IMG/VR virus record: IMGVR_UViG_2541047837_000005 | Span: 1-14,373 of that record | DNA length: 14,373 bases | Source of the DNA: a virus | Taxonomy: Duplodnaviria; Heunggongvirae; Uroviricota; Caudoviricetes | Strand: one strand, 5' to 3' | In this document: one piece after another, positions 1,407 to 14,373 of the stretch | Layout: every line of letters starts with the position of its first letter | How positions within the stretch are numbered: position 1 is the stretch's first letter | Position numbers and translations under genes: made by a program | The notes under the pieces: model-generated | What the model was told of the DNA's origin: nothing | What the model saw: the letters and a program-made list of their open reading frames with translations, nothing else | The model's database searches: none

Positions 1407-1409
1407 GCG

Positions 1410-1613
1410 TTACTCCCACAGATTGACAGTTTCAGCCACGGGCGCGGTCTGAACGTCGGGCAGTTCGACGGCGGTGCCGTGTGGCAGCACCGCACCCAGT
1501 TCAGCCAGTCCCGGATTTGCGGCGAGCACGGCCTCGACCACGCCCTCAGTGCGCCCGTAATACCGGACACAAATGGCGTCGAGCGTGTCGCCCTGTAGCG
1601 CAAAGGTCTTCAT
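1410..1613 (-). CDS. X: Tail protein X (LysM-like), 67 aa
   Basis: MKTFALQGDTLDAICVRYYGRTEGVVEAVLAANPGLAELGAVLPHGTAVELP from the internal Met of the 90-aa track ORF; ATGA start/stop overlap with L at 1611-1615. Confidence 0.85.
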   Translation of the reverse strand: MKTFALQGDTLDAICVRYYGRTEGVVEAVLAANPGLAELGAVLPHGTAVELPDVQTAPVAETVNLWE

Positions 1614-2122: not shown

Positions 2123-2221
2123 GACTACCTCTGAAAAGTCGGGCGGTGGACGCCGGTACAGTGTCAGGTGATTCACCCTCACTGACCGGCGTGCCGCCCT
2201 GGCGCGGGGCGCATTCGGTTG

Positions 2222-2659: not shown

Positions 2660-2662
2660 CGG

Positions 2663-3736
2663 TTACGCTCCCGGCTCTGCGGTCGCCTTAGCCGGTGTGG
2701 AGAAATCACCGACCTTAATTTTTTCCACCAGACAACCGGCGGCGTAGTCTTCCACCACGTAATCAATGTTCATTGACTCGTAGTTCTCCACGCGGTCGAG
2801 TTTCGGGTTTTCCTCAATCACGCGGCGATGGCTGTCATCCATGTAGTAGATGGACAGGTTTTCCAGCTTCGTGATGAGCATCGCATCCGCCGGGAAGTAC
2901 GGGACGCGTACCGCCGGCAGGTTACCGATGCGTTTCTGGCTGATGATGACGTCAGCGGCCAGCATTTCGCTGTTGTCCTGCTCCTTGTTGACGATGGGGA
3001 AATATTTGTCCGCCAGCAGCTGACGCCCCACAATCACCACAAGGTCAGGGTCTTCCTGATACCACGGCTCAATCAGGTTGTTGGTCGCATCCATCACCAG
3101 TGCATCGAGGCTGGCATAATCACCGCTCTTACCCACGCGGATGACCTCAGAGGTGGTGTGCCCTTCCTCGTCAGTGACCTTGCTCATCACGCGCGCCGGG
3201 GCTTCATTGCGGTATTTCTGCAGCCAGCCGACCGCCACATCCTGCAGCATCGGATTGCTGCTGCGGTCAGAGGTTTCGGCACGCCTCACGCCGTTAAAAC
3301 CGGCCATGATGAAATCAAGGGACTGGCGTTTGATAATGGCGTTACGGACACGGAGCTGGAAATCCTGATAACGCGCCCACAGGTCCAGCGTTTTGTAGCG
3401 GATATAAAAATCGAAGTTAATCTGGTCGCATTCGTACTTGTTTGACGCCAGCTTCGAGAAGTCCTTCGGCTGACGCTCGGTGCCACCGGCGGTGTCGGTG
3501 GTGCTGGCGATGGAGCCGGTGACACCGATGCCAATTTTTTCCCCTTTCATTTCGCTGACCGGCACAATGTTGATGCGGGTCAGAAAGTCAGAGGACTCCT
3601 GCATGGTGTTCATCAGGGTCTGGGTGACCGACGGTTCAACGGTGAATTTTTTCGACACATCACCGGCGTCGATGCCGTTCAGTTCGGCAACACGGGACAG
3701 GTAAGCATTAAATTTAAAGCGGGTTTCCTGGCGCAT
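2663..3736 (-). CDS. N: Major capsid protein precursor gpN, 357 aa
   Basis: Full-length match in size and sequence character to P2 gpN (MRQETRFKFNAYLSRVAELNGIDAGDVSKKF...); AGGA ribosome-binding site upstream; follows O. Confidence 0.92.
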   Translation of the reverse strand: MRQETRFKFNAYLSRVAELNGIDAGDVSKKFTVEPSVTQTLMNTMQESSDFLTRINIVPVSEMKGEKIGIGVTGSIASTTDTAGGTERQPKDFSKLASNKYECDQINFDFYIRYKTLDLWARYQDFQLRVRNAIIKRQSLDFIMAGFNGVRRAETSDRSSNPMLQDVAVGWLQKYRNEAPARVMSKVTDEEGHTTSEVIRVGKSGDYASLDALVMDATNNLIEPWYQEDPDLVVIVGRQLLADKYFPIVNKEQDNSEMLAADVIISQKRIGNLPAVRVPYFPADAMLITKLENLSIYYMDDSHRRVIEENPKLDRVENYESMNIDYVVEDYAAGCLVEKIKVGDFSTPAKATAEPGA

Positions 3737-3794
3737 AGTTTTTCCTGAAATTAAGGGTTAATCGTGAAGGTTTTCCCGGACTGACTGACGCCGG

Positions 3795-4649
3795 TCAGCA
3801 GTTCGTCATCAGGGCGTCACCGCCACCACCGGTGGCCTTGCTGCGGCGCTGCTGGGTCAGACTTTCGGTGTGGTCGAGACTGTTTTTCAGGCGGGTGAAT
3901 GCCTGGCTGGTTTCATCCGCCCTGTCAGTCACCTCCTGCTTAAGTGCGGAAAAGGCGGTTTCCATCTCAGAGAGGCGCTGCTCAGTGGCGCTCAGTTTTT
4001 CCTGCACATGTTCAGCAACAGCGGTCACCGCTTCATGCACGTCATTCAGACGGGCGTCATCGCTGGCCTGTTTGCGGCCAAAAATGGATTTCACCTTTTC
4101 GGTCAGGGCGGTGAACACGGTTTCAGGCAGGTCTTCAAATTCCAGCTCAACAGGCGTTGCCACTGAAATCAGGTTTTCAGGGCTTAATTTGAAGCGGTTC
4201 AGGGGGTTGTGTTTTGCCGTGCGGCAGAATTCCAGGTATTCCGTGCCGAGGCTTGCCGGGTCATCGGTGACGGCCAGCCCCACCAGATAACATTTGCCGG
4301 TATTGGCAAAGTTCGGCTGAATTTCCATTGAGGTGTAGACTTTCTGCGCGGCCTTGTTCATCGCGATAAGGTCATCGGTCGGGGTGATTTTCGCAAACAG
4401 CGCCCATTTGCCTTTCAGCGCCGAATCGTCGTCAATCTTTTCGGCCTTCAGTTCGACCACATCGCCATAACGTTTAAAAATACCGTCAGGCAGGATGCCG
4501 CGCAGATGTTCCAGGTTAATGCGGCAACCGTAGACACGCGGGTCAAAGGTTTCAGCCATTTCCTGAATATCCTGCGCACTGATGACACGCCCGTCACAGG
4601 TGTCACCCTCAACGCCGATACGAAAGAATTTTGAGACTTTTTTTGCCAT
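3795..4649 (-). CDS. O: Capsid scaffolding protein gpO, 284 aa
   Basis: MAKKVSKFFRIGVEGDTCDGRVISAQDIQEMAETFDP from the internal Met of the 306-aa track ORF; length equals P2 gpO; AGGA ribosome-binding site upstream. Confidence 0.88.
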   Translation of the reverse strand: MAKKVSKFFRIGVEGDTCDGRVISAQDIQEMAETFDPRVYGCRINLEHLRGILPDGIFKRYGDVVELKAEKIDDDSALKGKWALFAKITPTDDLIAMNKAAQKVYTSMEIQPNFANTGKCYLVGLAVTDDPASLGTEYLEFCRTAKHNPLNRFKLSPENLISVATPVELEFEDLPETVFTALTEKVKSIFGRKQASDDARLNDVHEAVTAVAEHVQEKLSATEQRLSEMETAFSALKQEVTDRADETSQAFTRLKNSLDHTESLTQQRRSKATGGGGDALMTNC

Positions 4650-4822
4650 TGTCAGGAGTCCTGAATAGTGATTAGAGGAGTCACATGTCGGCATCAGTTT
4701 CCCGACGATACGCATCCTCCGCCATCAGTCCCGGATGGCTTATCACTGACACAACAGCACCTTAGCGAATCGCGGGGCGCGACTCAGTAGCCTTGCCGTG
4801 TATTCATCACGGCGAGGTATTC
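4650..4822. promoter_or_regulatory. Divergent late-promoter region between O (minus) and P (plus); contains a 7-bp direct repeat AGGAGTC (4654-4660 and 4676-4682) and an inverted repeat CCGTG-N7-CACGG (4794-4812)
   Basis: Intergenic position between divergently oriented late operons, as in P2; repeats read by eye; no clear TGT-N12-ACA Ogr-type site found. Confidence 0.4.
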
Positions 4823-5560
4823 ATGACCATCACCACAGACACCACTCTTTTACACGACCCGCGTCGTCAGGCGGCGCTGCTGTACTGGCAGGGGTTTTCC
4901 GTGCCGCAGATTGCCGCCATGTTGCAGATGAAACGCCCGACGGTGCAGAGCTGGAAACAGCGCGACGGCTGGGACAGCGTTGCCCCCATCAGCCGTGTCG
5001 AAATGAGTCTGGAAGCGCGGCTGACCCAGCTCATCATCAAACCGCAGAAAACCGGCGGTGACTTCAAGGAAATTGACCTGCTGGGACGCCAGATTGAACG
5101 GCTGGCGCGGGTCAACCGCTACAGTCAGACCGGCAACGAGGCAGACCTTAATCCGAACGTCGCTAACCGCAACAAAGGCGGGCGTCGCAAACCGAAAAAG
5201 AATTTTTTCAGTGACGAGGCCATCGAAAAGCTGGAGCAGATTTTCTTTGAGCAGTCTTTCGACTATCAGTTGCACTGGTACACGCCGGAAATGAAAACCG
5301 CAATGGTGCTCAAGGCAAAAGACGTCATCCGCCGTGGCTGTCTGGAATACGACGTCAGCGCCACCGACATCACCAGCTCGTTTATGGCTATCCGCAAGAC
5401 CATGACCAGCAGCGGACGCAGTGCCACCTATGAGGCCAGCCGCAGCGAGGAAGCCAGCCACGCCGACCTCGCCTGGGCGACCATGCACGCCCTGTTAAAT
5501 GAGCCACTCACCGCCGGTATCAGCACCCCGCTGACATCCACCATTCTGGAGTTTTACTGA
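4823..5560 (+). CDS. P: Terminase large (ATPase) subunit gpP-like, internally shortened (245 aa versus about 590 in P2); no Walker A motif seen
   Basis: MTITTDTTLLHDPRRQAALLYWQGFSVPQIAAMLQMKRPTVQSWKQRDGWDS N-terminus after GAGG ribosome-binding site at the internal ATG 4823; stop TGA overlaps the Q ATG at 5560; no GxxxxGK[ST] in the translation. Confidence 0.7.
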   Translation: MTITTDTTLLHDPRRQAALLYWQGFSVPQIAAMLQMKRPTVQSWKQRDGWDSVAPISRVEMSLEARLTQLIIKPQKTGGDFKEIDLLGRQIERLARVNRYSQTGNEADLNPNVANRNKGGRRKPKKNFFSDEAIEKLEQIFFEQSFDYQLHWYTPEMKTAMVLKAKDVIRRGCLEYDVSATDITSSFMAIRKTMTSSGRSATYEASRSEEASHADLAWATMHALLNEPLTAGISTPLTSTILEFY

Positions 5561-6594
5561 TGAGCAAGAAAAAAGGGAAAACACCGCAACCTGCGGCAAA
5601 AAAAATGACCGCCAGCGCCCCGAAAATGGAGGCATTCACCTTTGGTGAGCCGGTGCCGGTACTCGACCGCCGTGACATTCTGGATTACGTCGAGTGCATC
5701 AGTAACGGCAGATGGTATGAGCCACCGGTCAGCTTTACCGGTCTGGCAAAAAGCCTGCGTGCTGCCGTGCATCACAGCTCACCGATTTACGTCAAACGTA
5801 ATATTCTGGCCTCGACATTTATCCCGCATCCGTGGCTTTCCCAGCAGGATTTCAGCCGCTTTGTGCTGGATTTTCTGGTGTTCGGTAATGCGTTTCTGGA
5901 AAAGCGTTACAGCACCACCGGTAAGGTCATCAGACTGGAAACCTCACCGGCAAAATATACCCGCCGAGGCGTGGAAGAGGATGTTTACTGGTGGGTGCCG
6001 TCCTTCCATGAGCCGACACCTTTCGCGCCCGGCTCCGTGTTTCACCTGCTGGAGCCGGATATTAATCAGGAGCTGTACGGCCTGCCGGAATATCTCAGCG
6101 CCCTTAACTCTGCCTGGCTGAATGAGTCGGCCACGCTGTTCCGCCGCAAGTATTACGAAAACGGCGCACATGCCGGATACATCATGTACGTCACCGATGC
6201 CGTGCAGGATCGCAACGATATCGAAATGCTCCGCGAAAACATGGTGAAGTCGAAAGGCCGCAACAACTTTAAAAATCTGTTTCTCTATGCCCCGCAAGGG
6301 AAAGCCGACGGCATTAAAATTATCCCGCTCAGTGAAGTGGCGACGAAGGACGATTTTTTTAATATCAAAAAAGCCAGCGCCGCTGACCTGCTGGACGCAC
6401 ACCGCATCCCCTTTCAGTTGATGGGCGGCAAGCCGGAGAACGTCGGGTCACTGGGAGATATTGAGAAAGTGGCAAAGGTCTTTGTCCGCAATGAGCTTAT
6501 CCCGTTACAGGACAGGATCCGCGAGATAAACGGCTGGCTCGGTCAGGAGGTCATCCGCTTTAAAAACTACTCACTGGACACTGACAACGGCTGA
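5560..6594 (+). CDS. Q: Portal protein gpQ, 344 aa
   Basis: Length and sequence character of P2 gpQ; translationally coupled to P; followed by a terminator and cos. Confidence 0.92.
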   Translation: MSKKKGKTPQPAAKKMTASAPKMEAFTFGEPVPVLDRRDILDYVECISNGRWYEPPVSFTGLAKSLRAAVHHSSPIYVKRNILASTFIPHPWLSQQDFSRFVLDFLVFGNAFLEKRYSTTGKVIRLETSPAKYTRRGVEEDVYWWVPSFHEPTPFAPGSVFHLLEPDINQELYGLPEYLSALNSAWLNESATLFRRKYYENGAHAGYIMYVTDAVQDRNDIEMLRENMVKSKGRNNFKNLFLYAPQGKADGIKIIPLSEVATKDDFFNIKKASAADLLDAHRIPFQLMGGKPENVGSLGDIEKVAKVFVRNELIPLQDRIREINGWLGQEVIRFKNYSLDTDNG

Positions 6595-6599
6595 ACATC

Positions 6600-6621
6600 G
6601 CCGCCTGCGGGCGGCTTTTTT
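6600..6621 (+). terminator. Rho-independent terminator after Q: GCCGCC-TGCG-GGCGGC stem-loop followed by TTTTTT
   Basis: Perfect 6-bp GC stem with 4-nt loop and a 6-T run immediately 3' of the Q stop codon. Confidence 0.6.
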
Positions 6622-6763
6622 ACAACCCGCCATCACGCCCTCACACGCTCACCACCGCACAAAACAGCCCGCATACACACCAACGCCCCGGCGAACAATC
6701 TAAACGCCATCACGACGCGCTCAGACGCTGAAAAAATAAAATCAGCACCACCGCCAGCGCGCA

Positions 6764-6782
6764 GTGCTTTCCCCGCCTCGCC
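6764..6782 (-). other. cos cohesive-end site (19-nt P2 cohesive end GGCGAGGCGGGGAAAGCAC, present as its reverse complement)
   Basis: Exact 19-mer GTGCTTTCCCCGCCTCGCC on the plus strand, about 170 bp beyond Q, where cos lies in P2. Confidence 0.75.
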
Positions 6783-6905
6783 CGCCCGCTTCATGGGTCG
6801 GTTTTAATGCAGGTGCATGACCACCATGGTGTCGCGCCTATTCTGACGGAGCACGATCTAAACTAGCAGCTCCAACGCATGCAAAACAATGCGCCTAATG
6901 CTTGC

Positions 6906-6918
6906 ACATCTGAAAATA
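6906..6918 (+). repeat. Left copy of imperfect 13-bp direct repeat ACATCTGAAAATA flanking the AT-rich cargo
   Basis: 12 of 13 match to 8879-8891 (ACACCTGAAAATA); located at the left edge of the AT-rich block. Confidence 0.3.
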
Positions 6919-7049
6919 AAAATCGTGTAGAAAGATATAGCAAAGTCTGCATATTAAAGCTGGCTGGCACGCAACTCATATCGCAGTGATTTGCCAATTA
7001 CATTGCGCAAAATTTACACTAACAACGGTTATCAAGAAGCAGGCGCAAA

Positions 7050-7060
7050 TTGATTATCAA
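7050..7060. promoter_or_regulatory. Palindrome TTGAT-T-ATCAA in the leader of the MBL-fold gene (candidate operator)
   Basis: Perfect 5-1-5 inverted repeat about 145 bp upstream of the ATG at 7205. Confidence 0.2.
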
Positions 7061-7126
7061 AAACTCGATCTAATCTATTGATCTAGACACGAATATTTAT
7101 GCATCCTGATATTGTTTTAAAGGTCT

Positions 7127-7142
7127 TTGATTGCCTAATCAA
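7127..7142. promoter_or_regulatory. Palindrome TTGATT-gcct-AATCAA in the leader of the MBL-fold gene (candidate operator overlapping a putative promoter)
   Basis: Perfect 6-bp arms with a 4-bp spacer about 65 bp upstream of the ATG; shares the TTGAT half-site with 7050-7060. Confidence 0.2.
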
Positions 7143-7204
7143 GTCCTGCACTACTTTGGCGTACAACACTTACATAAAGTTGAAAACTACAGAAGGGCAC
7201 AAGA

Positions 7205-8290
7205 ATGGGTTACGAAGTTGATTTCTTAGCAGTTGGAGAAAAAAAAAGTGGAGATGCTATCTGCATAAGATGGGGCAACCTCCACGGAACAAGAGCAGAG
7301 CAAAAAGTTGTCGTAATTGATGCGGGGTACGCAAGCACTGGTCCACAAATAATTGAACATTTACAGAAATACTATCATACAAATACTATTGACTTACTCA
7401 TATCCACGCATCCAGATAGCGACCATGCTGGCGGCCTTGAGCATGTGATTGAGAATGCGGAAGTCAAAGAGTTCTGGATTCACCAACCTTGGGAGCATAA
7501 TGAAAATCTCGCGCAGGAATTTGCTGATGGAAGGATAACAGATGCAAGTATTGCCAGACGTATACAAGATAATCTACAAAAAGCCTATGATGCCGTCAAA
7601 TCAGCGAAAAAAAAAGGAATAGAAATTAAGGAGCCTTTTCAAGGCAGGACTTGGGACAATTCTAAACTGGTTGTTATTGGACCAACACAAGCATACTATG
7701 AAACATTAATCCCCGATTTTGCAAGAATGCCTGAAAAAGCAGAAACAACTGCAACCAGTGGTACAGATGCATATAACTACTTTTTTGAGAAAGCCAAAGA
7801 ACAAGTCGAGTATATTGCTGATTGGTTCTCTGATGAGGGAATTGATGACAAGGACACAACTACTGCACAAAACAATTCAAGCGTTATATTAAAAATTGAA
7901 ATTGACAATAAAACACTAGTATTTACAGGTGATGCAGGAATAACTGCATTAGATATGGCTGCTGATCATATAAATAATAACTCATTATCATTTATTCAAG
8001 TGCCCCACCATGGAAGCAGGAGAAACATCGGTCCAGCGGTGCTAAATAAGCTCGTTGGAAATATTGTAAGCGAAGGAGGAAGAAGTGGTGTTTGTGCATT
8101 TATATCATGCGCACCGGATTCCGATAAACACCCTCATCAAGCGGTCATTAATGCTTTTACAAGGCGTGGAGCCAAAGTAGTCGCCACAGAAGGCACCAAT
8201 AAACGCCATTCTAGTAATGCCCCCGCCAGAGATGGCTGGACTGCAGTCACCCCACGCTCATACGCAAGGAGTTATAAGACTGAAGAATAA
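7205..8290 (+). CDS. Metallo-beta-lactamase-fold hydrolase, ComEC/Rec2-like nuclease-type domain, 361 aa; cargo gene
   Basis: Motifs AVGEKKSGDAICI...VVVIDAGY, STHPDSDHAGG (His69/Asp71/Asp73/His74), LVFTGDAG, VPHHGS, and C-terminal HPH...VATEGTN, typical of ComEC-type MBL domains; about 35% GC in sampled lines; GAAGGG ribosome-binding site; position of old in P2. Confidence 0.75.
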   Translation: MGYEVDFLAVGEKKSGDAICIRWGNLHGTRAEQKVVVIDAGYASTGPQIIEHLQKYYHTNTIDLLISTHPDSDHAGGLEHVIENAEVKEFWIHQPWEHNENLAQEFADGRITDASIARRIQDNLQKAYDAVKSAKKKGIEIKEPFQGRTWDNSKLVVIGPTQAYYETLIPDFARMPEKAETTATSGTDAYNYFFEKAKEQVEYIADWFSDEGIDDKDTTTAQNNSSVILKIEIDNKTLVFTGDAGITALDMAADHINNNSLSFIQVPHHGSRRNIGPAVLNKLVGNIVSEGGRSGVCAFISCAPDSDKHPHQAVINAFTRRGAKVVATEGTNKRHSSNAPARDGWTAVTPRSYARSYKTEE

Positions 8291-8295
8291 TTCGT

Positions 8296-8317
8296 TAAGC
8301 TGCCTTAGGGCAGCTTA
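8296..8317. terminator. Hairpin TAAGCTGCC-TTAG-GGCAGCTTA between the convergent cargo genes (candidate bidirectional terminator)
   Basis: Perfect 9-bp stem with 4-nt loop starting 6 nt after the MBL gene stop, AT-rich on both sides; the stop codon of the minus-strand gene lies in the loop. Confidence 0.5.
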
Positions 8318-8793
8318 TTATTAGCCTTACTCACTCTTAATGTAATAAACTTAATTTGCTTAACGTACGACACAATAAAAACAAAAATCAAAAACAATGA
8401 AATCCATTTCGACGCCATGTAATCACCACCAACTACAAACGAAACAAAAAACAAAGAAAACAAAAAAACCAAGGACATAGAGAATAACGTCCTATACATA
8501 TTTGCAGTTTCTTGAAGAAGCTCTATTTTATTATCCTTTCTACATGCTGAGATATATTCCTCATATGGAACAAATTTTACCAGCCCCAAAAATTTCAACA
8601 CAGGCTCAAAAACAATAGACCCAATCCTTCCGATAATTATCCCCGTAAAATAGTAAAGTACCACATTCTTAACAACATCATCTGTGGATAATATCACATT
8701 GGTTGCCCGCTCAAACAAATAAATAAATAAAGCACCGGGAAAGAGATTGTTAAATATATTATAAGACGATATTTTTTCCCATAAACCATCCAT
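8305..8793 (-). CDS. Small multi-pass membrane protein of unknown function, 162 aa; cargo gene
   Basis: Three to four hydrophobic stretches (GALFIYLF; VVLYYFTGIIIGRIGSIVFEPVL; LFSMSLVFLFSLFFVSFVVGG; WISLFLIFVFIVSYV); ATG at 8793 with AAAGGTG ribosome-binding site (the track ORF starts at an upstream GTG); AT-rich. Confidence 0.65.
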   Translation of the reverse strand: MDGLWEKISSYNIFNNLFPGALFIYLFERATNVILSTDDVVKNVVLYYFTGIIIGRIGSIVFEPVLKFLGLVKFVPYEEYISACRKDNKIELLQETANMYRTLFSMSLVFLFSLFFVSFVVGGDYMASKWISLFLIFVFIVSYVKQIKFITLRVSKANNKLP

Positions 8794-8878
8794 ACAACAC
8801 ACCTTTTAACCAATTTTAAAGACGCCATTTTCATCAAAAGAAACAAAAATAGCAAGAACATCAGAACAAACTCTTTGA

Positions 8879-8891
8879 ACACCTGAAAATA
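8879..8891 (+). repeat. Right copy of imperfect 13-bp direct repeat ACACCTGAAAATA flanking the AT-rich cargo
   Basis: 12 of 13 match to 6906-6918; about 90 bp upstream of the membrane-protein start. Confidence 0.3.
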
Positions 8892-8908
8892 TTATGTTCC
8901 GACACCAT

Positions 8909-9061
8909 TCATTTTGTAAAAGCAGAATATCCCAAACACACATCGATTGTAGGATATATAAACGTCTTCCTGCCATATGTTATGGTAGCCCCTCGCGCCA
9001 GCGCCTCAAGCTCCCATCGCTGCGGCCTGATACCGTTCTGAGCAAGGTCAACGCGGATACT
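8909..9061 (-). pseudogene. Possible out-of-frame C-terminal remnant of replication gene A (...IRVDLAQNGIRPQRWELEALARGATITYG...)
   Basis: ORF in a different frame continues directly past the A stop (9048) to 8909 with GC content like the P2 core; assignment to the A C-terminus is from imperfect memory. Confidence 0.3.
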
Positions 9062-10766
9062 CGTTAACGTCATCCGACGGGCTACGGGCGACTCTGACAG
9101 TCTGACAATCGCGCGGAACATTTGCCCCACCCTGCGCGCTGATATACAACGCAAAATCACCACTGTCTGCGGCGGCGCGTGCAGCCTCGACGCGCTCGTC
9201 AAACTCATCAGCAATGCTGACGCCGCGAGGCAATTTGCGTAGTTCACGGTAAGCCCCCATTGTCGGCAGGCCAACCGTTTTAAATTGCGGAATGCGCCAC
9301 GTTGACGCCCATGCGGTAACAGCCGCGGCAGTATCTTTCAGCGGTCTGCCGGTATCGTTATCGAGCTGCCCATCCAGTGCATAGCCGTCGATATTTTTTG
9401 AGATGTATTTCGCGATATACCCCGCAGCACCGCCCCGGTTAAGATGTTTTGCCTGAAAACGGTTTCGCGCGGCTCCTCTTTCGTCGCCATCCTCTTTGAG
9501 CGCATAGCGACGCATGATTTCGATAATCTGGTTACGCTGGCGTGGATTACAAAAAAGCATCATATGCCAGTGCGGCGTTCCGTCGTGGTGTGGCTCGACG
9601 ACACGCAAACCGTAGGCCTGTAAATCATTATCCTTGAATGCCGTGCGCATCAGGCTCCAGATACGGCAGAGATAACGCTGCGCATCCTTTGGATTAAATG
9701 CCTCATCGTTCCAGCCGTGATTAAGCTGAACGGTTTTACTTTCGCCTTTTCCGACCTGACGTGTCGGGTGATACTTTGACGGCGCGGTCAGCGTGATAAA
9801 CATCCCCACATCACCCTCTGCAGCGGCGTAACGCTCAATACCGGCAATGGTGTTCATCAGCTCCATCCGGCGAATTTCAGGATTAGAAATACTGCCCATC
9901 ACCTTACTGATAAGGTCGATGCGCTCGCCGGTTTCCTTATTTTCAAGGTCACACGATTTAAGAAATTCCAGATTTGCCTGGCGGCGTGCACGCACATCAC
10001 GAATGGCATGTTTACTGGCATAAGGAGAACGGTCTTTATTGACCTCCCCGACAGCAATCAGTAACGCCTCATGCCAGCGCATACGCTGGCCTTTAAGCTG
10101 ATGAGTCCACCACTCATCGTTAAACAGACGGGCAATGGCAGAATATGCCTGCCTCGTGGTCATCTGCCCTTTACGGTATTTTTTCCAGTAGAGAGGGGAA
10201 ATATTGAAAGCTCGTGCAGCGCCAGCAACATGACCATACAGGTGAGCCTGCGCCTCATCCGTAAACAGCGATTCTTTCTCGCCATGCGCATCCACCCAGG
10301 CATCGCAGAGTTCCTCATACATCATGAAAAGCTGTGATGAGATACGGGCGGCAAACTTTTTCAGCTCCTTGTCATTCATTCCAGGCAAACGCGCATAATG
10401 GTCACGCTCTGCCAGAAACAGCAACGACGCGTCGGTGTTCATTTCATGGCGCTGATTCACACGCTCAATGCGCGGCCATAAACGACGCTGAAAAGTGGAT
10501 GTGAGGAAATAAAACCCGTGCACCGGGCTTTTATTGCGCCGGATGTAGTCATAGCGTGAAGTAAACAGCGAGCGCAAAAAGTAAGGCAGGCGATTAATCG
10601 TGGATAAAACACCTTGCACCTGACGCATCTCGTCACGTGTAAGGGGTCTTTCGCGCCCGACGGCCTCGCGTGGCGCGTTCCATGCATAAGCACCGGTAAA
10701 CGTCTCACCGGTGCCTGCGGCAAATGCTGACGGAGGGACAAAACGCCCGGAGGCTTTAACGGCCAT
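9048..10766 (-). CDS. A: Rolling-circle replication initiator gpA, C-terminally truncated (572 aa from the ATG versus about 761 in P2)
   Basis: MAVKASGRFVPPSAFAAGTG start at the internal ATG 10766 (the track ORF begins at an upstream TTG); HWHMM metal-binding motif and GYIAKYISK active-site tyrosine pair present; ends abruptly ...SDDVNEYPR. Confidence 0.85.
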   Translation of the reverse strand: MAVKASGRFVPPSAFAAGTGETFTGAYAWNAPREAVGRERPLTRDEMRQVQGVLSTINRLPYFLRSLFTSRYDYIRRNKSPVHGFYFLTSTFQRRLWPRIERVNQRHEMNTDASLLFLAERDHYARLPGMNDKELKKFAARISSQLFMMYEELCDAWVDAHGEKESLFTDEAQAHLYGHVAGAARAFNISPLYWKKYRKGQMTTRQAYSAIARLFNDEWWTHQLKGQRMRWHEALLIAVGEVNKDRSPYASKHAIRDVRARRQANLEFLKSCDLENKETGERIDLISKVMGSISNPEIRRMELMNTIAGIERYAAAEGDVGMFITLTAPSKYHPTRQVGKGESKTVQLNHGWNDEAFNPKDAQRYLCRIWSLMRTAFKDNDLQAYGLRVVEPHHDGTPHWHMMLFCNPRQRNQIIEIMRRYALKEDGDERGAARNRFQAKHLNRGGAAGYIAKYISKNIDGYALDGQLDNDTGRPLKDTAAAVTAWASTWRIPQFKTVGLPTMGAYRELRKLPRGVSIADEFDERVEAARAAADSGDFALYISAQGGANVPRDCQTVRVARSPSDDVNEYPR

Positions 10767-11031
10767 ATGAGCCAAAAGCCTCTGAACAACGCTTGCTGAG
10801 TTGCTCAACCTGCGCGTTTAAATCAGCAAAAGACTTTGCGCTTCCGGTCAGAATATCGTGATGCATCAGGCCGGAAACGAGCTGGCTTAATTTCGGGTAA
10901 TAACCAACCACCGCCAGCCATTCCTGACCGGCGTTTTTACCGCTTTCCGCTCTCTTTTTCTCGTGGAGAATAAACTGAAAGCTGTCACTGGTAACGACAT
11001 AACGTTCGCCAATTTCAATACGAATACTCAT
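10756..11031 (-). CDS. Hypothetical early-operon protein, 91 aa (P2 orf83-like by position)
   Basis: ATG with GGAG ribosome-binding site 8 nt upstream; overlaps the A start by 11 nt; between the zinc-finger ORF and A. Confidence 0.55.
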   Translation of the reverse strand: MSIRIEIGERYVVTSDSFQFILHEKKRAESGKNAGQEWLAVVGYYPKLSQLVSGLMHHDILTGSAKSFADLNAQVEQLSKRCSEAFGSYGR

Positions 11032-11252
11032 GCTGTTCTCCAGTAATGTTTGTTTTTTGCTTCAAAGACTGACTGACAGGAAACACAACGCGTGGCTGAC
11101 GGATAAGCCGCACGACGGGCAGCAGGTATTGGCGCATCACACTCTTCGCAAACCAGCGCAGAAGCACCACAATGTTTTACCCTTGCCGCGTTAATCTGGC
11201 GCTCCAGTAATTCAGCCTGTTGTTCCTGAATAAAATCCACGTTGTCCGGCAT
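11028..11252 (-). CDS. TraR/DksA-type C4 zinc-finger protein, 74 aa (P2 orf82-like)
   Basis: CGASALVCEECDAPIPAARRAAYPSATRCVSCQ gives a CxxC...CxxC arrangement; coupled to flanking ORFs by start/stop overlaps. Confidence 0.65.
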   Translation of the reverse strand: MPDNVDFIQEQQAELLERQINAARVKHCGASALVCEECDAPIPAARRAAYPSATRCVSCQSVFEAKNKHYWRTA

Positions 11253-11554
11253 TACCAGCTCCTTTTGTCGTTCAGTTTCTTAAATTCATCAGCGCAATAG
11301 CTGGTGATTTCTGTCGTTAATTTTGTCAGTTCATCCACGGAGGAAATTTGCTTGTGAAATACAGCGCGTTTAACAAGTAAATTGACCACATCAGACAGGA
11401 GGTTTAATTCACTCTGATAAATCGCGATAACAGATTCAGTTATTTCGCGTTTTTCTTTATCAAGCCTAAGTTGAATAAGAGACAAATCGCCATTTTTCAT
11501 AACGACGATTTTTAAGGCATTGTTCAGTAAAACAACTGAACGAGAACAGGACAT
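11252..11554 (-). CDS. Hypothetical early-operon protein, 100 aa from the ATG (P2 orf81-like by position)
   Basis: Track ORF starts at TTG 11557; ATG at 11554 overlaps the upstream stop by 1 nt; co-oriented within the B-to-A operon. Confidence 0.5.
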   Translation of the reverse strand: MSCSRSVVLLNNALKIVVMKNGDLSLIQLRLDKEKREITESVIAIYQSELNLLSDVVNLLVKRAVFHKQISSVDELTKLTTEITSYCADEFKKLNDKRSW

Positions 11555-11778
11555 CAAAGCACCTCCCCGCGAGACAATCCGATGTTGTGAAATTTTTCCG
11601 ACTCCTGACTGAGCAGCTCGACTATCTCCACGCGGGATAACTCCGCCTTTGTGATGTGGCGAATCATGGCGTCAAGATGAGAAGAAAAGCGCGTCGCAGC
11701 GTCGGCCTGTGCTTCGGTTCTGGCCTGTTGCAGCAGTAATGCGTATTTACCGCACTGATTTTCAGAAACTGTATGCAT
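11554..11778 (-). CDS. Hypothetical early-operon protein, 74 aa from the internal ATG (P2 orf80-like by position)
   Basis: Internal ATG at 11778 has a GGAG ribosome-binding site 7 nt upstream; the track ORF extends to 11811. Confidence 0.5.
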
Positions 11779-11841
11779 GACTTTCTCCAGGCAAAAAGAA
11801 GCCCCGCACAATTAAGTGCGTTAAAAACTCTGGTTAATTAC

Positions 11842-12342
11842 TTAATGCAGATATTGCTCTGGTTTTACCGACGTCAGAATTGTCGGTGCATACTCAAACA
11901 GACTGAATAATTCACGTAATGCACGGAATAAAGCATCACGCCAGTAACATGATTCTTCATTAATTCGCCAGTATGGCTGGTTAAATTCTTTTTCTGTCAG
12001 TCGTGCGTGCATAAATAAAGTGCGACGCTGACTGACTGTTAAAAAACTAATATATGCATACTCACTTGCGCCAACCTGACGGCGTTTTGAGAATGCCCCA
12101 CGCAATTCATCAATTGCACATACCAGTCGTTCACGTTCGACGTCGTTCATTTCTTCAAAACGCATCGTTGCGTGACGCTGTTTTAACTGAGCATGGAAGC
12201 AAACCGTTAACCGTTCGCGCTCCATCATCTGATTATAATAATCACATGTATCCTGCCAGCGAGGAACGGCAAGATGCTTACCAATTATCCGGCGCATAGC
12301 TGCTGGCTGTTTTTCAACGAGATTGAGCGTCATCACTGTCAT
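11842..12342 (-). CDS. B: Replication protein gpB (helicase-loading accessory), 166 aa
   Basis: Length identical to P2 gpB (166 aa); position between the orf78-like gene and the small early ORFs; ATG at 12342 overlaps the upstream stop. Confidence 0.75.
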   Translation of the reverse strand: MTVMTLNLVEKQPAAMRRIIGKHLAVPRWQDTCDYYNQMMERERLTVCFHAQLKQRHATMRFEEMNDVERERLVCAIDELRGAFSKRRQVGASEYAYISFLTVSQRRTLFMHARLTEKEFNQPYWRINEESCYWRDALFRALRELFSLFEYAPTILTSVKPEQYLH

Positions 12343-12575
12343 TTCCAGACCCTCCGGCTTTTCAGAAAGGTCAGAGCCTTTTTTACCGGACTCTGTTTTT
12401 TGGTGCGGATAATGATTCCCTTACGCCCCTTACCGTGGGTGATGGTGAAGTCAATCGCCCTGGGGCTTTCGTTACGCAATAACTGAGCAATACAACGAGG
12501 CTCGTTCATCCTTTCCACCTTAAGCCGCACGGCCATGTCTTGATTTGCTGTAACTAATGCGATTTTTCCAGTCAT
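12339..12575 (-). CDS. Hypothetical protein, 78 aa from the internal ATG (P2 orf78-like by position and length)
   Basis: Track ORF of 86 aa starts at TTG; from the ATG at 12575 the product is exactly 78 aa; lies between cox and B. Confidence 0.45.
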   Translation of the reverse strand: MTGKIALVTANQDMAVRLKVERMNEPRCIAQLLRNESPRAIDFTITHGKGRKGIIIRTKKQSPVKKALTFLKSRRVWK

Positions 12576-12891
12576 GCCATTCTGTCGGAGCTTCATCAAC
12601 TAGCTGGGCTGCGTACTTGTCCCACTCACGGCGATTAATCCATAATTCAGCTTTCCCTCTTGGTTTTAATGGGTCTGTCATGTAGAAGGCTGGCAGCTTT
12701 CCTGCTTTAGCCATTTCAGCCACCGCGCGTGGTGTCTTACCGATGTAAAGAGCAAAACCTTCTTTCGACAGCAAATCAGATGGGCGCTCTGAAATCTGAA
12801 TGCTTTTACGTTTGGCTTCATTTTCGAAACTTGCCTCATCGCTAGTTGGACAAGAAATTTCTACATTTGTCGTCACTTTGCTATCCTCCAT
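12520..12891 (-). CDS. cox: Cox/Apl-like helix-turn-helix excisionase and lytic-switch repressor; ORF is 123 aa, longer than the 91 aa of P2 Cox
   Basis: First gene of the early operon, divergent from C; helix-turn-helix-like segment FALYIGKTPRAVAEMAKAGKLPAFYMTDP resembling the Cox GKLP..MTDP region; ATG at 12891. Confidence 0.6.
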   Translation of the reverse strand: MEDSKVTTNVEISCPTSDEASFENEAKRKSIQISERPSDLLSKEGFALYIGKTPRAVAEMAKAGKLPAFYMTDPLKPRGKAELWINRREWDKYAAQLVDEAPTEWHDWKNRISYSKSRHGRAA

Positions 12892-12984
12892 AAGATTTGC
12901 GATTCACCAACTGGAGCCATCTAGAGCCTTTTTGAGCGAATCACAAATTGCCAAGTAACAATATAATTGGAGATTAGCAAAATT
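12892..12984. promoter_or_regulatory. Immunity switch region between cox and C with repeated GCGA(T/A)TCAC motifs (12899-12907, 12936-12944) and TATAAT at 12962-12967
   Basis: Divergent intergenic region at the expected Pe/Pc position; two copies of a 9-bp motif 37 bp apart; promoter elements read by eye only. Confidence 0.4.
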
Positions 12985-13284
12985 ATGTCAAGTGAACAAA
13001 GTGAGAAACTAAAGCTCATCCGTGAATCCGAACGCCTTAAAACTAAGGAACTTGCTGAATTAATTGGAATTAATTACTACACATATCATGGATATGAATC
13101 AGGAAAATCAAAAATGCCTATGGAAGCAGGTATGAAGCTGTTTAAGCATCCACGCTTTCGCAAGTATCGTGACTGGTTCATGTTTGATGAAACAGATCCA
13201 GCAGCTGGACAAATAGCCCCGGCTCTCGCACACATTGGGCAAGACTCAACAACCTTGCACCACTCAGACCAGAAGACTGGCTGA
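12985..13284 (+). CDS. C: Immunity repressor C, 99 aa
   Basis: From ATG 12985 (the track ORF starts at TTG 12967): helix-turn-helix LKTKELAELIGINYYTYHGYESGKS and C-terminus GQIAPALAHIGQDSTTLHHSDQKTG resembling P2 C; 99 aa as in P2; upstream of int. Confidence 0.8.
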   Translation: MSSEQSEKLKLIRESERLKTKELAELIGINYYTYHGYESGKSKMPMEAGMKLFKHPRFRKYRDWFMFDETDPAAGQIAPALAHIGQDSTTLHHSDQKTG

Positions 13285-13377
13285 CGATTTATTCAGCATA
13301 TGTGTGTAGTAAATGTACGAAAGAAAATTGCATTAATTTTCAAGTAGTAGAAGTAAACAGCGTCATCGGAGGGCTTT

Positions 13378-14373
13378 ATGTCTATTAAAAAGCTCGATGA
13401 TGGTCGTTATGAAGTGGACGTCAGACCGCAGGGTGCAGATGGAAAACGTATCAGGCGGAAATTTAAAACTAAAGGTGAAGCTCAAGCATTCGAACGTCAT
13501 GTACTGGTTAACTACCACAACAAAGAGTGGTTGGAGAAACCAGCCGACCGCCGAACTCTTACAGAGTTGTTAGGCAGATGGTGGATATATCACGGAAAAT
13601 CACATGAGCGTGGAGATATTGAACGGGGGCGTTTAACGACAATAATCGCCAAATTTGCAGAAATGGGAGTGTCCAGAGCTGACCAGCTAACAAAGAAAAC
13701 GATAACTGATTATCGCGTTGTAATGATGAACGATGGTCTGAAACCAGCCAGCGTAAATCGACATCTGGCAATAATGAGCGGGATGTTCACCAAGTTAATT
13801 GACGCCGGTGAATACCACTCTCACAACCCGTTCCGTGAGATTAAACGGTTACGTGAAGCTGTTACGGAAATGGCTTTTTTGTCCAGTGAAGAGATTACGC
13901 GGCTGTTATCCATGCTTGATGGTGATGAATTAAATGCAACTCTGGTCTGCCTTTCTACTGGTGGACGCTGGAGTGAAGTGTCTAATTTAAAAGCTGAACA
14001 CATCATTAACCAGATGGTTACGTTTATGAAAACTAAAAACGGAAAACGCAGGACAATTCCCGTTTCGCAGGACCTGATTAAACGGATCAAGACCAAAAAT
14101 TCAGGCAGGCTTTTTAATGCCAGTTACTACAAAGTGCGTAACGCTCTCAGGGAAGTAAAACCCGATTTACCTGACGGACAAGCAGTACATGTTTTGAGGC
14201 ATACATTTGCCACACATTTTATAATGAATGGAGGTAACATAATCACATTGCAGCGCATCCTGGGTCATTCTAACATTCAGCAAACTATGACCTACGCACA
14301 CTTTGCACCGGATTTCTTACAAGATGCTGTGACTCTTAACCCGGTGTCAGGAATGTCCATAATGCGTCCATAA
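13378..14373 (+). CDS. int: Tyrosine integrase (P2 Int family), 331 aa
   Basis: N-terminus MSIKKLDDGRYEVDVRP; catalytic signature TGGRWSE, HVLRHTFATHF, GHSNIQQTMTYAHF; GGAGGG ribosome-binding site; TAA stop is the last codon of the window. Confidence 0.92.
   Translation: MSIKKLDDGRYEVDVRPQGADGKRIRRKFKTKGEAQAFERHVLVNYHNKEWLEKPADRRTLTELLGRWWIYHGKSHERGDIERGRLTTIIAKFAEMGVSRADQLTKKTITDYRVVMMNDGLKPASVNRHLAIMSGMFTKLIDAGEYHSHNPFREIKRLREAVTEMAFLSSEEITRLLSMLDGDELNATLVCLSTGGRWSEVSNLKAEHIINQMVTFMKTKNGKRRTIPVSQDLIKRIKTKNSGRLFNASYYKVRNALREVKPDLPDGQAVHVLRHTFATHFIMNGGNIITLQRILGHSNIQQTMTYAHFAPDFLQDAVTLNPVSGMSIMRP

What the first reader, a model, noticed from the sequence alone, without database searches (positions are those of the whole stretch)
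8305..8793. Small multi-pass membrane protein convergent with the MBL gene
The 162-aa protein has three or four predicted transmembrane helices, no recognisable family, and occupies the slot downstream of A where P2 has orf91/tin. Small membrane proteins often act as abortive-infection effectors or superinfection-exclusion factors in prophages. Convergent orientation with a shared hairpin suggests it is expressed independently of the MBL gene, so the cargo may be two separate single-gene functions.
Basis: partly seen in the sequence, partly recalled or inferred. Interest (0 to 1): 0.6.

Follow-up and report, generated by a model that had tools for sequence, protein, structure and literature searches.

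The report
Membrane partner of MBL defence nuclease
The small membrane protein is a real gene, but it always occurs with the neighbouring metallo-beta-lactamase-fold nuclease, and the pair is a catalogued but untested candidate anti-phage system (PADLOC PDC-M48) carried in the cargo hotspot of P2-like prophages.

Summary
The ORF at 8305-8793 (-) is a real, conserved gene. Its family has 1,225 representatives at 50% clustering, and dN/dS is 0.07-0.22. It has three robust hydrophobic helices and one marginal one, and a confident AlphaFold model (pLDDT 90.5).

It sits in a low-GC island between gpA and gpQ, the P2 cos-proximal defence hotspot. It is convergent with an MBL-fold gene across a 9-bp hairpin.

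- The protein matches PHROG 11864 and PADLOC PDC-M48A. The neighbour matches PDC-M48B.
- An MBL homologue lies in the same gene cluster in all 115 informative loci of 121 examined, in three different gene arrangements.
- In complete E. coli genomes the two genes co-occur 45 of 45.
- Seven loci add an E2-E1-JAB (Cap2/3-like) gene. This links the pair to the validated 6A-MBL anti-phage system.

The MBL is ComEC-like and is related to protease-activated defence DNases (HamM, Avs1a).

Best reading: the two genes form one defence module. I infer that the membrane protein tethers or controls the DNase. The reverse assignment (membrane effector, MBL sensor) is not excluded. PDC-M48 has never been tested experimentally.

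The parts
8305..8793 (-). Gene for the 162-aa membrane protein (PDC-M48A family; = WP_021533448), stop codon included
7205..8290 (+). Gene for the 361-aa MBL-fold hydrolase (PDC-M48B family; = WP_021533447). It is ComEC-like, with HxDxDH (H69-H74), D243 and H268-H269 invariant. Predicted DNase partner.
8296..8317 (.). Perfect 9-bp inverted repeat with a 4-nt loop between the convergent genes. It looks like a bidirectional terminator but lacks a strong T-run. The membrane gene's stop codon lies in the loop.
   Evidence: The terminator scan did not call it.
8800..8805 (-). Shine-Dalgarno-like AAGGTG, 6 nt upstream of the ATG at 8793
   Evidence: Sequence read
8891..8920 (-). Best sigma-70-like promoter match upstream of the membrane gene (TTTACA-18-CATAAT, 10 of 12), inside the 3' end of gpA. 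A consensus match only.
   Evidence: The region holds 8 sites against 5.7 expected, so this is weak evidence.
6991..7113 (+). Two sigma-70-like matches (6991-7020 and 7084-7113, 9 of 12 each) upstream of the MBL gene. Consensus matches only.
6800..9000 (.). Low-GC cargo island of the P2 cos-proximal hotspot. It is 99.9% identical in 22 complete E. coli genomes and 6 phage records.

Best explanation
The membrane protein is one half of a two-gene module. The other half is the convergent MBL-fold gene. The module is carried as accessory cargo in the gpA-gpQ hotspot of P2-like prophages, and its most likely role is anti-phage defence. PADLOC lists it as candidate PDC-M48.

Proposed mechanism (inferred, not shown):
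1. The cytoplasmic MBL protein is a ComEC/HamM-like metal-dependent DNase and is the executing enzyme.
2. The small membrane protein is its dedicated inner-membrane partner. It docks the nuclease through a strongly conserved polar cluster and keeps it tethered or silent until an infection cue at the membrane. The cluster comprises Y11, N12, N15, R56, S59, E63, N98, Y100, R101, S142, Y143, K145 and Q146. I place all of these at the cytoplasmic membrane interface.
3. On the cue, DNA is degraded.

This is the sensor-in-the-membrane, nuclease-in-the-cytoplasm logic that I recall for Kiwa and Zorya. An optional E2-E1-JAB (Cap2/3-like) regulator converts the same core into the validated 6A-MBL type of system.

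Shown: the gene is real and conserved; the pairing is obligate; the context is a defence hotspot; the MBL catalytic motifs are intact.
Inferred: the defence function, the topology, which partner senses and which executes, and physical contact between the two proteins.
For: One unit:
- PADLOC PDC-M48A (E 6.8e-49) and PDC-M48B (E 6.4e-99) match the two adjacent genes.
- An MBL homologue is adjacent in 110 of 121 loci and in the same cluster in 5 more. The other 6 are truncated contigs.
- Three gene arrangements occur, with start/stop overlaps of -1 to -17 nt in many co-directional loci.
- Each gene is in 45 of 5,426 complete E. coli genomes, with the same 22/23 split into two alleles.
- TM and MBL pairwise distances correlate (r = 0.51; 0 of 2000 permutations reach it). 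The nearest TM neighbour carries the same MBL subtype in 51 of 75 cases, against 18.6 expected.

Defence context:
- The P2 gpA-gpQ hotspot (PMC9122126). The arrangement 'hypothetical + Lactamase_B, WP_021533448 + WP_021533447' is listed in that paper's Table S5.
- Distant homologous pairs sit directly after type I RM genes (L009), beside a DpnII RM and an ABC ATPase (L017), and beside DUF4365 (L004).
- PDC systems were defined by being embedded in BREX, DISARM or type I RM systems.

Link to a validated system:
- Seven loci add an E2-E1-JAB gene.
- In L060 and L073 both partners score above the NCBIfam cut-offs for the anti-phage 6A-MBL system: enzyme 438 and 359 bits against a cut-off of 220, and cap2_3 588 and 513 bits against 320.

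MBL as nuclease:
- The nearest solved structure is the ComEC MBL domain, by sequence (9ic4) and by fold (E 1.1e-13).
- HxDxDH, D243 and HH268-269 are invariant in 55 homologues.
- The protein is collinear with the PADLOC models for the Lamassu-, DRT- and Avs1-associated MBLs (E 5.6e-28, 3.9e-21 and 1.3e-15).
- That class has been shown biochemically to be dsDNA nucleases that act as terminal effectors (PMC12642450 and PMC12799240).

Membrane protein as a docking or control element:
- The invariant and near-invariant residues are polar and lie at helix ends, while the cores of the two most hydrophobic helices are unconserved.
- There are 4 K/R and no D/E in the C-terminal tail and 6 K/R in the 63-102 loop.
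- The 150 best family representatives listed are 158-216 aa, with no fused soluble domain that could bind a signal molecule.
Against: - No experiment exists for PDC-M48. Payne et al. call the 145 PDCs untested, and the pair is absent from the Rousset supplementary file listing the systems tested (only Table S5 matched).
- Which protein senses and which executes is not determined by any result here.
- In type II CBASS and Pycsar, and by published analogy in 'MBL pathways', the E2-E1 protein is said to conjugate the signalling enzyme (PMC11601596). That analogy would make the MBL the upstream component and the membrane protein the effector.
- Close MBL homologues (~50% identity) pair with unrelated 4-TM proteins of 207-221 aa, and canonical 6A-MBL loci carry a 252-aa 4-TM gene. 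That kind of swapping is typical of effectors.
- Topology is uncertain. Helix 1 is only marginally hydrophobic, so the conserved N-terminal motif could be periplasmic rather than cytoplasmic.
- Physical interaction was not tested, because no complex prediction was possible with these tools.
- The fold searches gave no informative match for the membrane protein.
Confidence: 0.45

Rival explanations
1. Reverse roles. The membrane protein is the cell-killing effector (a pore or ion leak causing abortive infection). The MBL enzyme is the sensor or signal generator that activates it, as in type I CBASS, Pycsar or Hailong. The Cap2/3-like gene is the optional primer of the upstream enzyme.
For: - The architecture 'enzyme + small multi-TM protein, with or without an E2-E1-JAB gene' parallels CBASS types I and II. 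The trio occurs in seven loci.
- PMC11601596 groups 'MBL pathways' with type II CBASS and Pycsar, where the E2-E1 protein conjugates the signalling enzyme.
- The membrane partner is swapped for non-homologous 4-TM proteins beside close MBL homologues, as effectors often are.
- Rousset et al. note that TM proteins in known systems are believed to be suicide effectors.
Against: - The family has no ligand-binding soluble domain. The top 150 representatives are about 160-215 aa.
- There are no conserved polar residues along the cores of the most hydrophobic helices that could line a pore.
- MBLs of the related defence clade are terminal dsDNases, not signal makers.
- No hydrolase-made second messenger is known for such a system (my own knowledge).
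Confidence: 0.3
2. One reading: two unrelated single-gene cargo functions that happen to lie tail to tail. The membrane protein would be a stand-alone abortive-infection or superinfection-exclusion factor.
For: - Convergent orientation with separate promoter-like sites.
- A hairpin lies between the genes.
Against: - An MBL gene is in the cluster in 115 of 115 informative loci, across phyla and in three arrangements, many with overlapping reading frames.
- Each gene is in 45 E. coli genomes, with the same allele split.
- The two proteins co-diverge.
- The convergent form is confined to the P2-hotspot lineage, plus one metagenome contig.
Confidence: 0.03
3. The pair has a non-defence role. Examples: an envelope-modifying phosphodiesterase anchored by the membrane protein (lysogenic conversion or receptor masking), or a DNA-uptake or DNA-processing function, as the RefSeq name 'ComEC/Rec2 family competence protein' suggests.
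For: - The second-best structural match of the MBL model is the pneumococcal phosphorylcholine esterase Pce (E 3e-10).
- The best match is ComEC.
- P2 hotspots also carry non-defence cargo.
Against: - The MBL has no evident signal peptide (N-terminus read).
- There is no ComEC Competence (channel) domain. TIGR00361 scores 50.9 bits against a cut-off of 190.
- Homologous pairs sit next to or inside RM systems.
- The Cap2/3-containing relatives belong to a system reported as anti-phage.
Confidence: 0.07
4. The membrane protein is an activating enzyme. For example, it could be a membrane-embedded Ser/Lys-dyad peptidase using the invariant S59 and K145. It would license a zymogen-like MBL DNase, replacing the trypsin-like protease of the HamM and Avs1a modules.
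For: - Related defence MBLs are zymogens opened by a partner protease.
- Here the constant partner is the 4-TM protein instead.
- S59 and K145 are invariant, and by my topology inference they lie at similar depths at the cytoplasmic ends of two helices.
- The MBL has a disordered, hypervariable loop at about 177-206 (pLDDT below 50 at 182-194).
Against: - There is no similarity to any peptidase family.
- That loop has no conserved residue that could be a cleavage site, unlike the conserved isoleucines of HamM.
- The proximity of S59 and K145 could not be checked because no coordinates were available.
Confidence: 0.07

Closest known systems
PADLOC PDC-M48 (phage defence candidate, multi-gene no. 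48; Payne et al. 2024 bioRxiv 10.1101/2024.01.29.577857)
   Same: Both genes match its two HMM sets (PDC-M48A at E 6.8e-49, PDC-M48B at E 6.4e-99) and are adjacent. This is the same entity.
   Different: PDC-M48 is a prediction made by 'guilt by embedding'. It has no experiment and no proposed mechanism. The P2 form is convergent, whereas most family members are co-directional operons.
6A-MBL anti-phage system (E2-E1-JAB 'cap2_3' + MBL enzyme; NCBIfam NF058523/NF058524; operon type 6a of Iyer et al. 2006; reported as validated in P. aeruginosa by van den Berg et al. 2024, which I could not read)
   Same: - The MBL partner is homologous.
- Homologues of this membrane protein are the third gene of bona fide 6A-MBL operons (L060, L073, L102, L115).
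- Other 6A-MBL loci carry a different 252-aa 4-TM gene in the same place.
- So an MBL plus a 4-TM protein looks like the shared core.
   Different: - The window has no E2-E1-JAB gene.
- Its MBL scores 33.8 bits against the family cut-off of 220.
- The 2006 description calls the operon 'usually two genes' and does not mention a membrane protein.
Protease-activated MBL nuclease modules (HamM of HamMAB Hachiman, Avs1a, and the Lamassu- and DRT-associated MBLs)
   Same: The MBL is collinear with these PADLOC models (E 5.6e-28 to 1.3e-15). It is ComEC-like with intact metal-binding motifs. That class consists of Zn-dependent dsDNases acting as death effectors.
   Different: - No trypsin-like protease and no sensor ATPase is present. 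The constant partner here is a small membrane protein.
- NF041809 (Avs1a) scores 62.7 bits against a cut-off of 420.
- No conserved cleavage-site residue is seen in the variable loop.
Kiwa (KwaA 4-TM membrane sensor + KwaB cytoplasmic DNA-targeting effector) and Zorya; the comparison rests on my own knowledge of these systems
   Same: A small multi-pass inner-membrane protein is paired with a cytoplasmic protein that acts on DNA. This is the working analogy for the best explanation.
   Different: There is no sequence similarity. No KwaA or Zor model matched in PADLOC at E<=1. The effector fold is different.
Type I/II CBASS and Pycsar with transmembrane effectors
   Same: The pattern is an enzyme plus a small TM protein, with an optional Cap2/Cap3-like regulator.
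   Different: The enzyme is a hydrolase, not a nucleotide cyclase. The TM protein has no SAVED or cNMP-binding domain.
ComEC/Rec2 (the RefSeq product name of the neighbouring gene)
   Same: The MBL domain is the closest solved relative. In ComEC this domain is also joined to a membrane domain.
   Different: The OB and Competence domains are absent. TIGR00361 scores 50.9 bits against a cut-off of 190. The membrane protein shows no similarity to ComEC's channel.
P2 orf91 / tin / old (occupants of the same slot in phage P2)
   Same: The genomic position is the same, between gpA and cos/gpQ. The role as accessory exclusion cargo is also the same.
   Different: There is no homology. P2 and its close relatives match only the gpA end of the query.

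Membership tests
PADLOC PDC-M48 candidate system | Protein matching a PDC-M48A HMM | tested here: met
   PDLC04670, E 6.8e-49, residues 4-162 against profile positions 1-162 of 164
PADLOC PDC-M48 candidate system | Adjacent protein matching a PDC-M48B HMM | tested here: met
   PDLC04676, E 6.4e-99, full length. The gene is 14 nt away.
PADLOC PDC-M48 candidate system | Demonstrated anti-phage activity | not testable with these tools
   The authors call the 145 PDCs untested. No paper in the library mentions PDC-M48.
6A-MBL anti-phage system (NCBIfam) | MBL enzyme scoring above the NF058524 cut-off (220 bits) | tested here: not met
   33.8 bits, E 2e-8
6A-MBL anti-phage system (NCBIfam) | E2-E1-JAB 'cap2_3' gene in the operon (NF058523) | tested here: not met
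   Apart from a 56-aa ORF with no family match, the only ORFs of 50 aa or more that are not nested in a gene or in the gpA remnant are the two genes. cap2_3 is present in related loci L014, L060, L064, L073, L102, L115 and L120.
Protease-MBL nuclease module (HamM / Avs1a type) | MBL nuclease homologous to Avs1a/HamM at family level | tested here: not met
   NF041809 scores 62.7 bits against a cut-off of 420. Only superfamily-level similarity is seen (PADLOC LmuA-type MBL, E 5.6e-28).
Protease-MBL nuclease module (HamM / Avs1a type) | Adjacent trypsin-like protease fused to a defence sensor | tested here: not met
   There is no such gene in the island. The partner is the 162-aa membrane protein.
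ComEC/Rec2 competence protein | Full-length match to TIGR00361, including the Competence channel domain | tested here: not met
   50.9 bits against a cut-off of 190, covering the C-terminal MBL part only. Pfam finds only Lactamase_B.
Phosphohistidine phosphatase (the name some NCBI records give the membrane protein) | Match to a histidine phosphatase family | tested here: not met
   No Pfam or NCBIfam family at E<=0.01 and E<=0.1 respectively. No PDB relative at E<=1. The name appears and has no support.
Multi-pass inner-membrane protein | At least three hydrophobic helices long enough to span the membrane, conserved across the family | tested here: met
   Kyte-Doolittle peaks of 1.83, 2.50 and 1.96, plus a marginal 1.31. 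Family-mean peaks are 1.92, 1.79 and 1.94, plus 1.26. AlphaFold2 gives helices of 20-32 residues. No dedicated topology predictor was available.
P2 core or known P2 accessory genes (orf91, tin, old) | Sequence similarity to P2 genes in that slot | tested here: not met
   Megablast against phage records: P2 and its relatives cover only the last 4% of the query, which is the gpA end.
Kiwa KwaA or other known membrane defence proteins | Match to the PADLOC models of those proteins | tested here: not met
   At E<=1 only PDC-M48A models and a chance-level Csx27 hit (E 0.28) were found.

The most novel reading that the evidence does not exclude
An MBL DNase plus a small 4-TM protein is an unrecognised core immune module. 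6A-MBL would then be its 'type II' form, with a Cap2/3-like regulator. The membrane protein would be a new kind of membrane-embedded licensing factor. It would switch on a zymogen-like ComEC/HamM-type nuclease without a soluble protease. It might do so conformationally at sites of phage genome entry, or through its invariant Ser59/Lys145 pair acting as a peptidase dyad.
Probability: 0.15. Interest if true: 0.75.

Novelty: new variant of a known kind. Interest (0 to 1): 0.45.

Why it matters
Defence-associated MBL nucleases have only recently been shown to be latent DNases unlocked by a partner protease. Here the same kind of enzyme has no protease. Its constant partner is a tiny membrane protein, and the same partnership recurs inside operons of the 6A-MBL anti-phage system.

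If the pair defends, three things would follow:
- It would show a second way of controlling these nucleases, from the membrane.
- It would give 6A-MBL a missing third component.
- It would add a compact 1.6-kb system that P2-like prophages spread among Enterobacteriaceae. It is in 45 of 5,426 complete E. coli genomes.

It also corrects three misleading database names: 'phosphohistidine phosphatase', 'ComEC/Rec2 competence protein' and 'tail protein'.

Tried and rejected
- Pfam and NCBIfam give no family for the membrane protein. A profile search of PDB sequences finds nothing at E<=1.
- I looked for fusions of the membrane domain to an MBL or other domain among the 150 best family representatives and found none.
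- I tested whether the alternative 4-TM partners are remote homologues. These are the 207-221 aa proteins next to ~50%-identical MBLs and the 252-aa third gene of canonical 6A-MBL loci. hhalign gives probabilities of 0.1-0.2. Homology is not established; only the architecture is shared (TM-TM-loop-TM-TM).
- Literature: no paper mentions PDC-M48. Only Table S5 of Rousset 2022 matched the pair, not the table of systems tested. The 2026 P2/P4 hotspot paper (PMC13586616) does not mention MBL or this pair, and its supplements are not held. The van den Berg 2024 6A-MBL paper could not be read, so I do not know whether the validated P. aeruginosa construct included a membrane gene.
- The 56-aa ORF at 8806-8976 upstream of the gene has no family match and overlaps the end of gpA. 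I treated it as spurious.
- The idea that the ORF itself is chance was rejected on family size and dN/dS.
Full report
1. THE OBSERVATION

The window is a piece of a P2-like prophage. Pfam and PHROGs identify gpN (2663-3736, minus), gpO (3795-4715, minus), a shortened terminase gpP (4793-5560, plus), portal gpQ (5560-6594, plus), a shortened replication protein gpA (9048-10808, minus) and an integrase (from 13378, plus).

Between gpQ and gpA lies an island whose GC content is 0.34-0.42, against 0.52-0.58 in the flanks. It holds two convergent genes.
- An MBL-fold gene at 7205-8290 (plus).
- The ORF in question at 8305-8802 (minus).

The ATG at 8793 gives the 162-aa product. Three things support it as the start: an AAGGTG six nucleotides upstream, the PHROG profile alignment, and homologues that start at the same residue.

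The gene is real.
- A profile of 91 homologues finds 1,225 cluster representatives with E<=1e-3 among 1.84 billion, and 562 with E<=1e-30. The top 150 are 158-216 aa.
- dN/dS against five P2-type orthologues is 0.07-0.22.

Hydropathy shows three robust membrane-spanning segments at about 44-62, 103-121 and 126-144, and a marginal one at about 13-35. This holds in the query and across the family. AlphaFold2 with the family alignment gives a confident all-helical model (pLDDT 90.5, pTM 0.84). Its helices are at 12-31, 40-68, 77-86, 89-120 and 126-157.

The hairpin between the two genes is a perfect 9-bp stem at 8296-8317. It is stable on both strands, at -17.6 and -15.0 kcal/mol with z-scores of -3.7 and -3.2. 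The membrane gene's stop codon is in its loop.

Only 'no recognisable family' is inaccurate. Pfam and NCBIfam have nothing. PHROGs has phrog_11864 (E 5.7e-98, function unknown) and PADLOC has PDC-M48A (E 6.8e-49).

2. WHERE IT OCCURS

The 2.25-kb island is 99.9% identical in 22 complete E. coli genomes and in six phage records: two each for Peduovirus P24E6b and phage 11W, and one each for phages D8 and 12W. Where I examined the context, it lies between gpA and gpQ.

The two proteins are identical to RefSeq WP_021533448 and WP_021533447. Rousset et al. 2022 showed that this cos-proximal interval is a hotspot of anti-phage systems in P2-like phages (PMC9122126). Their Table S5 lists exactly this arrangement. 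It was the only supplementary file that matched, so the pair is not in the table of systems tested.

3. ONE UNIT, NOT TWO GENES

The neighbour matches PADLOC PDC-M48B (E 6.4e-99), so PADLOC already treats the pair as one candidate system. PDC systems are 145 untested candidates. They were predicted because homologues are embedded in BREX, DISARM or type I RM systems.

I gathered 120 loci that carry a homologue of the membrane protein. They came from public phage and E. coli records, IMG/VR, metagenomes and genomes. I searched their ORFs for MBL homologues. Counting the window, the 121 loci divide as follows.

| Situation | Loci |
|---|---|
| MBL gene immediately adjacent | 110 |
| MBL gene in the same cluster, not adjacent | 5 |
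| Uninformative (contig ends just after the membrane gene) | 6 |

There is no informative exception.

Three arrangements occur among the 104 adjacent pairs found with single-sequence queries.

| Arrangement | Loci | Note |
|---|---|---|
| TM->MBL, same strand | 57 | often overlapping by 1-17 nt |
| MBL->TM, same strand | 22 | |
| Convergent | 25 | the enterobacterial P2-hotspot lineage plus one metagenome contig |

Distant pairs sit in defence neighbourhoods:
- directly after hsdM-hsdS-hsdR (L009);
- beside a DpnII RM system and an ABC ATPase (L017);
- beside DUF4365 in Faecalibacillus (L004).

In 5,426 complete E. coli genomes each gene is found in 45 genomes. Both show the same split of 22 at >=99% and 23 at ~73% identity.

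Pairwise distances of the two proteins across 75 distinct pairs correlate (r = 0.51), and 0 of 2000 permutations reach that value. The nearest membrane-protein relative carries the same MBL subtype in 51 of 75 cases, against 18.6 expected. Shared descent of the operon can produce this by itself. Even so, it shows that the two genes are inherited as a unit.

4. LINK TO A VALIDATED SYSTEM

Seven loci add an E2-E1-JAB gene to the pair: L014, L060, L064, L073, L102, L115 and L120. In L060 and L073 both partners exceed the NCBIfam cut-offs for the 'anti-phage 6A-MBL system'.

| Component | L060 (bits) | L073 (bits) | Cut-off (bits) |
|---|---|---|---|
| MBL enzyme (NF058524) | 438 | 359 | 220 |
| cap2_3 (NF058523) | 588 | 513 | 320 |

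6A-MBL is cited as a validated system in P. aeruginosa. I could not read the original paper. The 2006 description of the 6a operon mentions two genes and no membrane protein.

Canonical 6A-MBL loci that I sampled (L126-L129) carry a 252-aa gene immediately after cap2_3. Its product again has two hydrophobic segments, a roughly 100-aa loop, and two more hydrophobic segments.

The closest non-enterobacterial MBL homologues (~50% identity; Aeromonas, Chromobacterium, Microbulbifer) lie in Tn7-like cargo or after type I RM genes. Each is followed by a 207-221 aa protein of the same architecture.

Neither alternative partner is detectably homologous to the present family.

An MBL enzyme plus a small 4-TM protein therefore looks like a recurrent core, with the Cap2/3-like gene as an option. 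The window's pair fails both defining tests for 6A-MBL itself. Its MBL scores 33.8 bits against 220, and there is no cap2_3 gene. It is a relative, not a member.

5. THE PARTNER ENZYME

The nearest solved relative of the MBL protein is the ComEC MBL domain, by sequence (9ic4) and by fold. The AlphaFold model has pLDDT 89.6, and Foldseek gives E 1.1e-13. Next come the Pce phosphorylcholine esterase and then the RNase J, CPSF73 and Cas14 nucleases.

The HxDxDH motif (H69-H74), D243 and H268-H269 are invariant in 55 homologues.

The protein is collinear with the PADLOC models of the Lamassu-, DRT- and Avs1-associated MBLs. Two 2025 papers show that this class consists of dsDNA nuclease zymogens. 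They are unlocked when a partner trypsin-like protease cuts out two insertions (PMC12642450 and PMC12799240).

The present MBL has a disordered, hypervariable segment at about 177-206 and no conserved residue within it. There is no protease gene in the island.

6. HOW IT MOST LIKELY WORKS

Shown:
- the gene is real;
- the pairing is obligate;
- the context is a defence hotspot;
- the MBL catalytic site is intact.

Inferred: everything else.

Conservation in the membrane protein concentrates in four motifs:
- EKISSYNIFNxLxPG (residues 6-20);
- YFxGxxxxRxGS (48-59);
- LxExxNxYRT (93-102);
- FxxSYxKQxxYxxxR (139-153).

The invariant residues are Y11, P19, G20, Y48, G51, R56, G58, S59, R101 and K145. 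The cores of the two most hydrophobic helices are not conserved.

The basic C-terminal tail has 4 K/R and no D/E, and the 63-102 loop has 6 K/R. Together with the positive-inside rule, this suggests an N-in, C-in four-helix topology. That would place nearly all conserved polar residues at the cytoplasmic membrane interface. I read this cluster as a docking or control surface rather than a pore lining. The caveat is that helix 1 is only marginally hydrophobic, so a three-pass form with the N-terminus outside is possible.

I therefore favour this model (confidence about 0.45). The MBL is the DNase effector. The membrane protein tethers and controls it, and releases or activates it on an infection cue at the membrane.

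The main rival (about 0.3) reverses the roles. It rests on the CBASS-like architecture, on the published view that in such pathways the E2-E1 protein acts on the signalling enzyme, and on the swapping of membrane partners.

The other readings carry less weight:
- a non-defence role, 0.07;
- a peptidase-like activator, 0.07;

The higher-level claim, that the two genes form one module whose role is anti-phage defence, I put at about 0.75-0.8.

7. NOVELTY AND VERDICT

The gene pair is already catalogued as PADLOC PDC-M48, in Rousset's Table S5 and in PHROG 11864. It is present unchanged in sequenced phages, so this instance is not new.

It is untested, and I found no proposed mechanism for the pair. 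The following points did not appear in anything I could read:
- the membrane protein family, or an analogous 4-TM protein, is a constant partner of defence MBLs;
- it is a third gene of 6A-MBL operons;
- the P2 pair is a Cap2/3-less, protease-less variant.

I rate it a new variant of a known kind, with interest 0.45. It is a worthwhile, compact candidate for experiment, but the finding as originally framed is only partly right.

Noticed in passing
window 2405, 5279-5288, 9057-9060; also 301-1263: Compared with intact relatives (E. coli 118UI prophage, Peduovirus P24E6b) the window lacks about 304 bp inside gpM, about 1,024 bp inside terminase gpP (255 aa instead of 590) and 418 bp inside gpA. 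ORF 301-1263 is a gpI/gpD fusion. Window 1053-14373 corresponds to 19.5 kb in five pieces in every complete E. coli genome that matches it. Either the prophage is defective through several deletions while its cargo island stays intact, or the sequence is a collapsed or edited assembly.
   Followed up: partly
window 7205-8290 and 8305-8793 (database names): The public names are misleading. The membrane protein is called 'phosphohistidine phosphatase' in several NCBI records, with no family support. The MBL is called 'ComEC/Rec2 family competence protein' in RefSeq. It is called 'tail protein' in PHROG 7043 and in NC_049389.
   Followed up: yes
L121 5107-5739, L124 5102-5725, L125 5095-5760: The closest non-enterobacterial homologues of the MBL (~50% identity) are followed by a different 207-221 aa protein with four hydrophobic segments and a conserved LVFLR...LPG.R...LLYRDA motif. 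It has no detectable similarity to the present family and matches no PADLOC model. These loci lie in Tn7-like cargo or next to type I RM genes.
   Followed up: partly
L126-L129, 8462-9220: Canonical 6A-MBL loci (MBL 387 aa -> E2-E1-JAB 763 aa) carry a third, unnamed 252-aa gene that starts at the stop of cap2_3. Its product has two hydrophobic segments, a loop of about 100 aa, and two more hydrophobic segments. A BrxR-like regulator gene lies upstream on the other strand. NCBIfam has models only for the first two genes.
   Followed up: partly
L060 1443-7524: One Nitrospinota-type contig carries a 6A-MBL trio (MBL, cap2_3, membrane protein). About 1.1 kb further on it has a second, short-type MBL gene (292 aa) preceded by small ORFs. 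This may be two MBL-based systems in tandem.
   Followed up: no
window 8806-8976 (-): A 56-aa ORF lies just upstream of the membrane gene. It overlaps the end of intact gpA and has no match in Pfam, PHROGs or PADLOC. Some phage records annotate extra hypothetical proteins in this island. It is probably not a gene.
   Followed up: partly
window 8305-8320 and orthologues (L023, L015, L003): The C-terminal residues (...KLP or ...ELP) of the P2-type membrane proteins are encoded by the hairpin arm itself, and Leu-Pro is kept in most orthologues. So the hairpin and the protein's C-terminus constrain each other.
   Followed up: no
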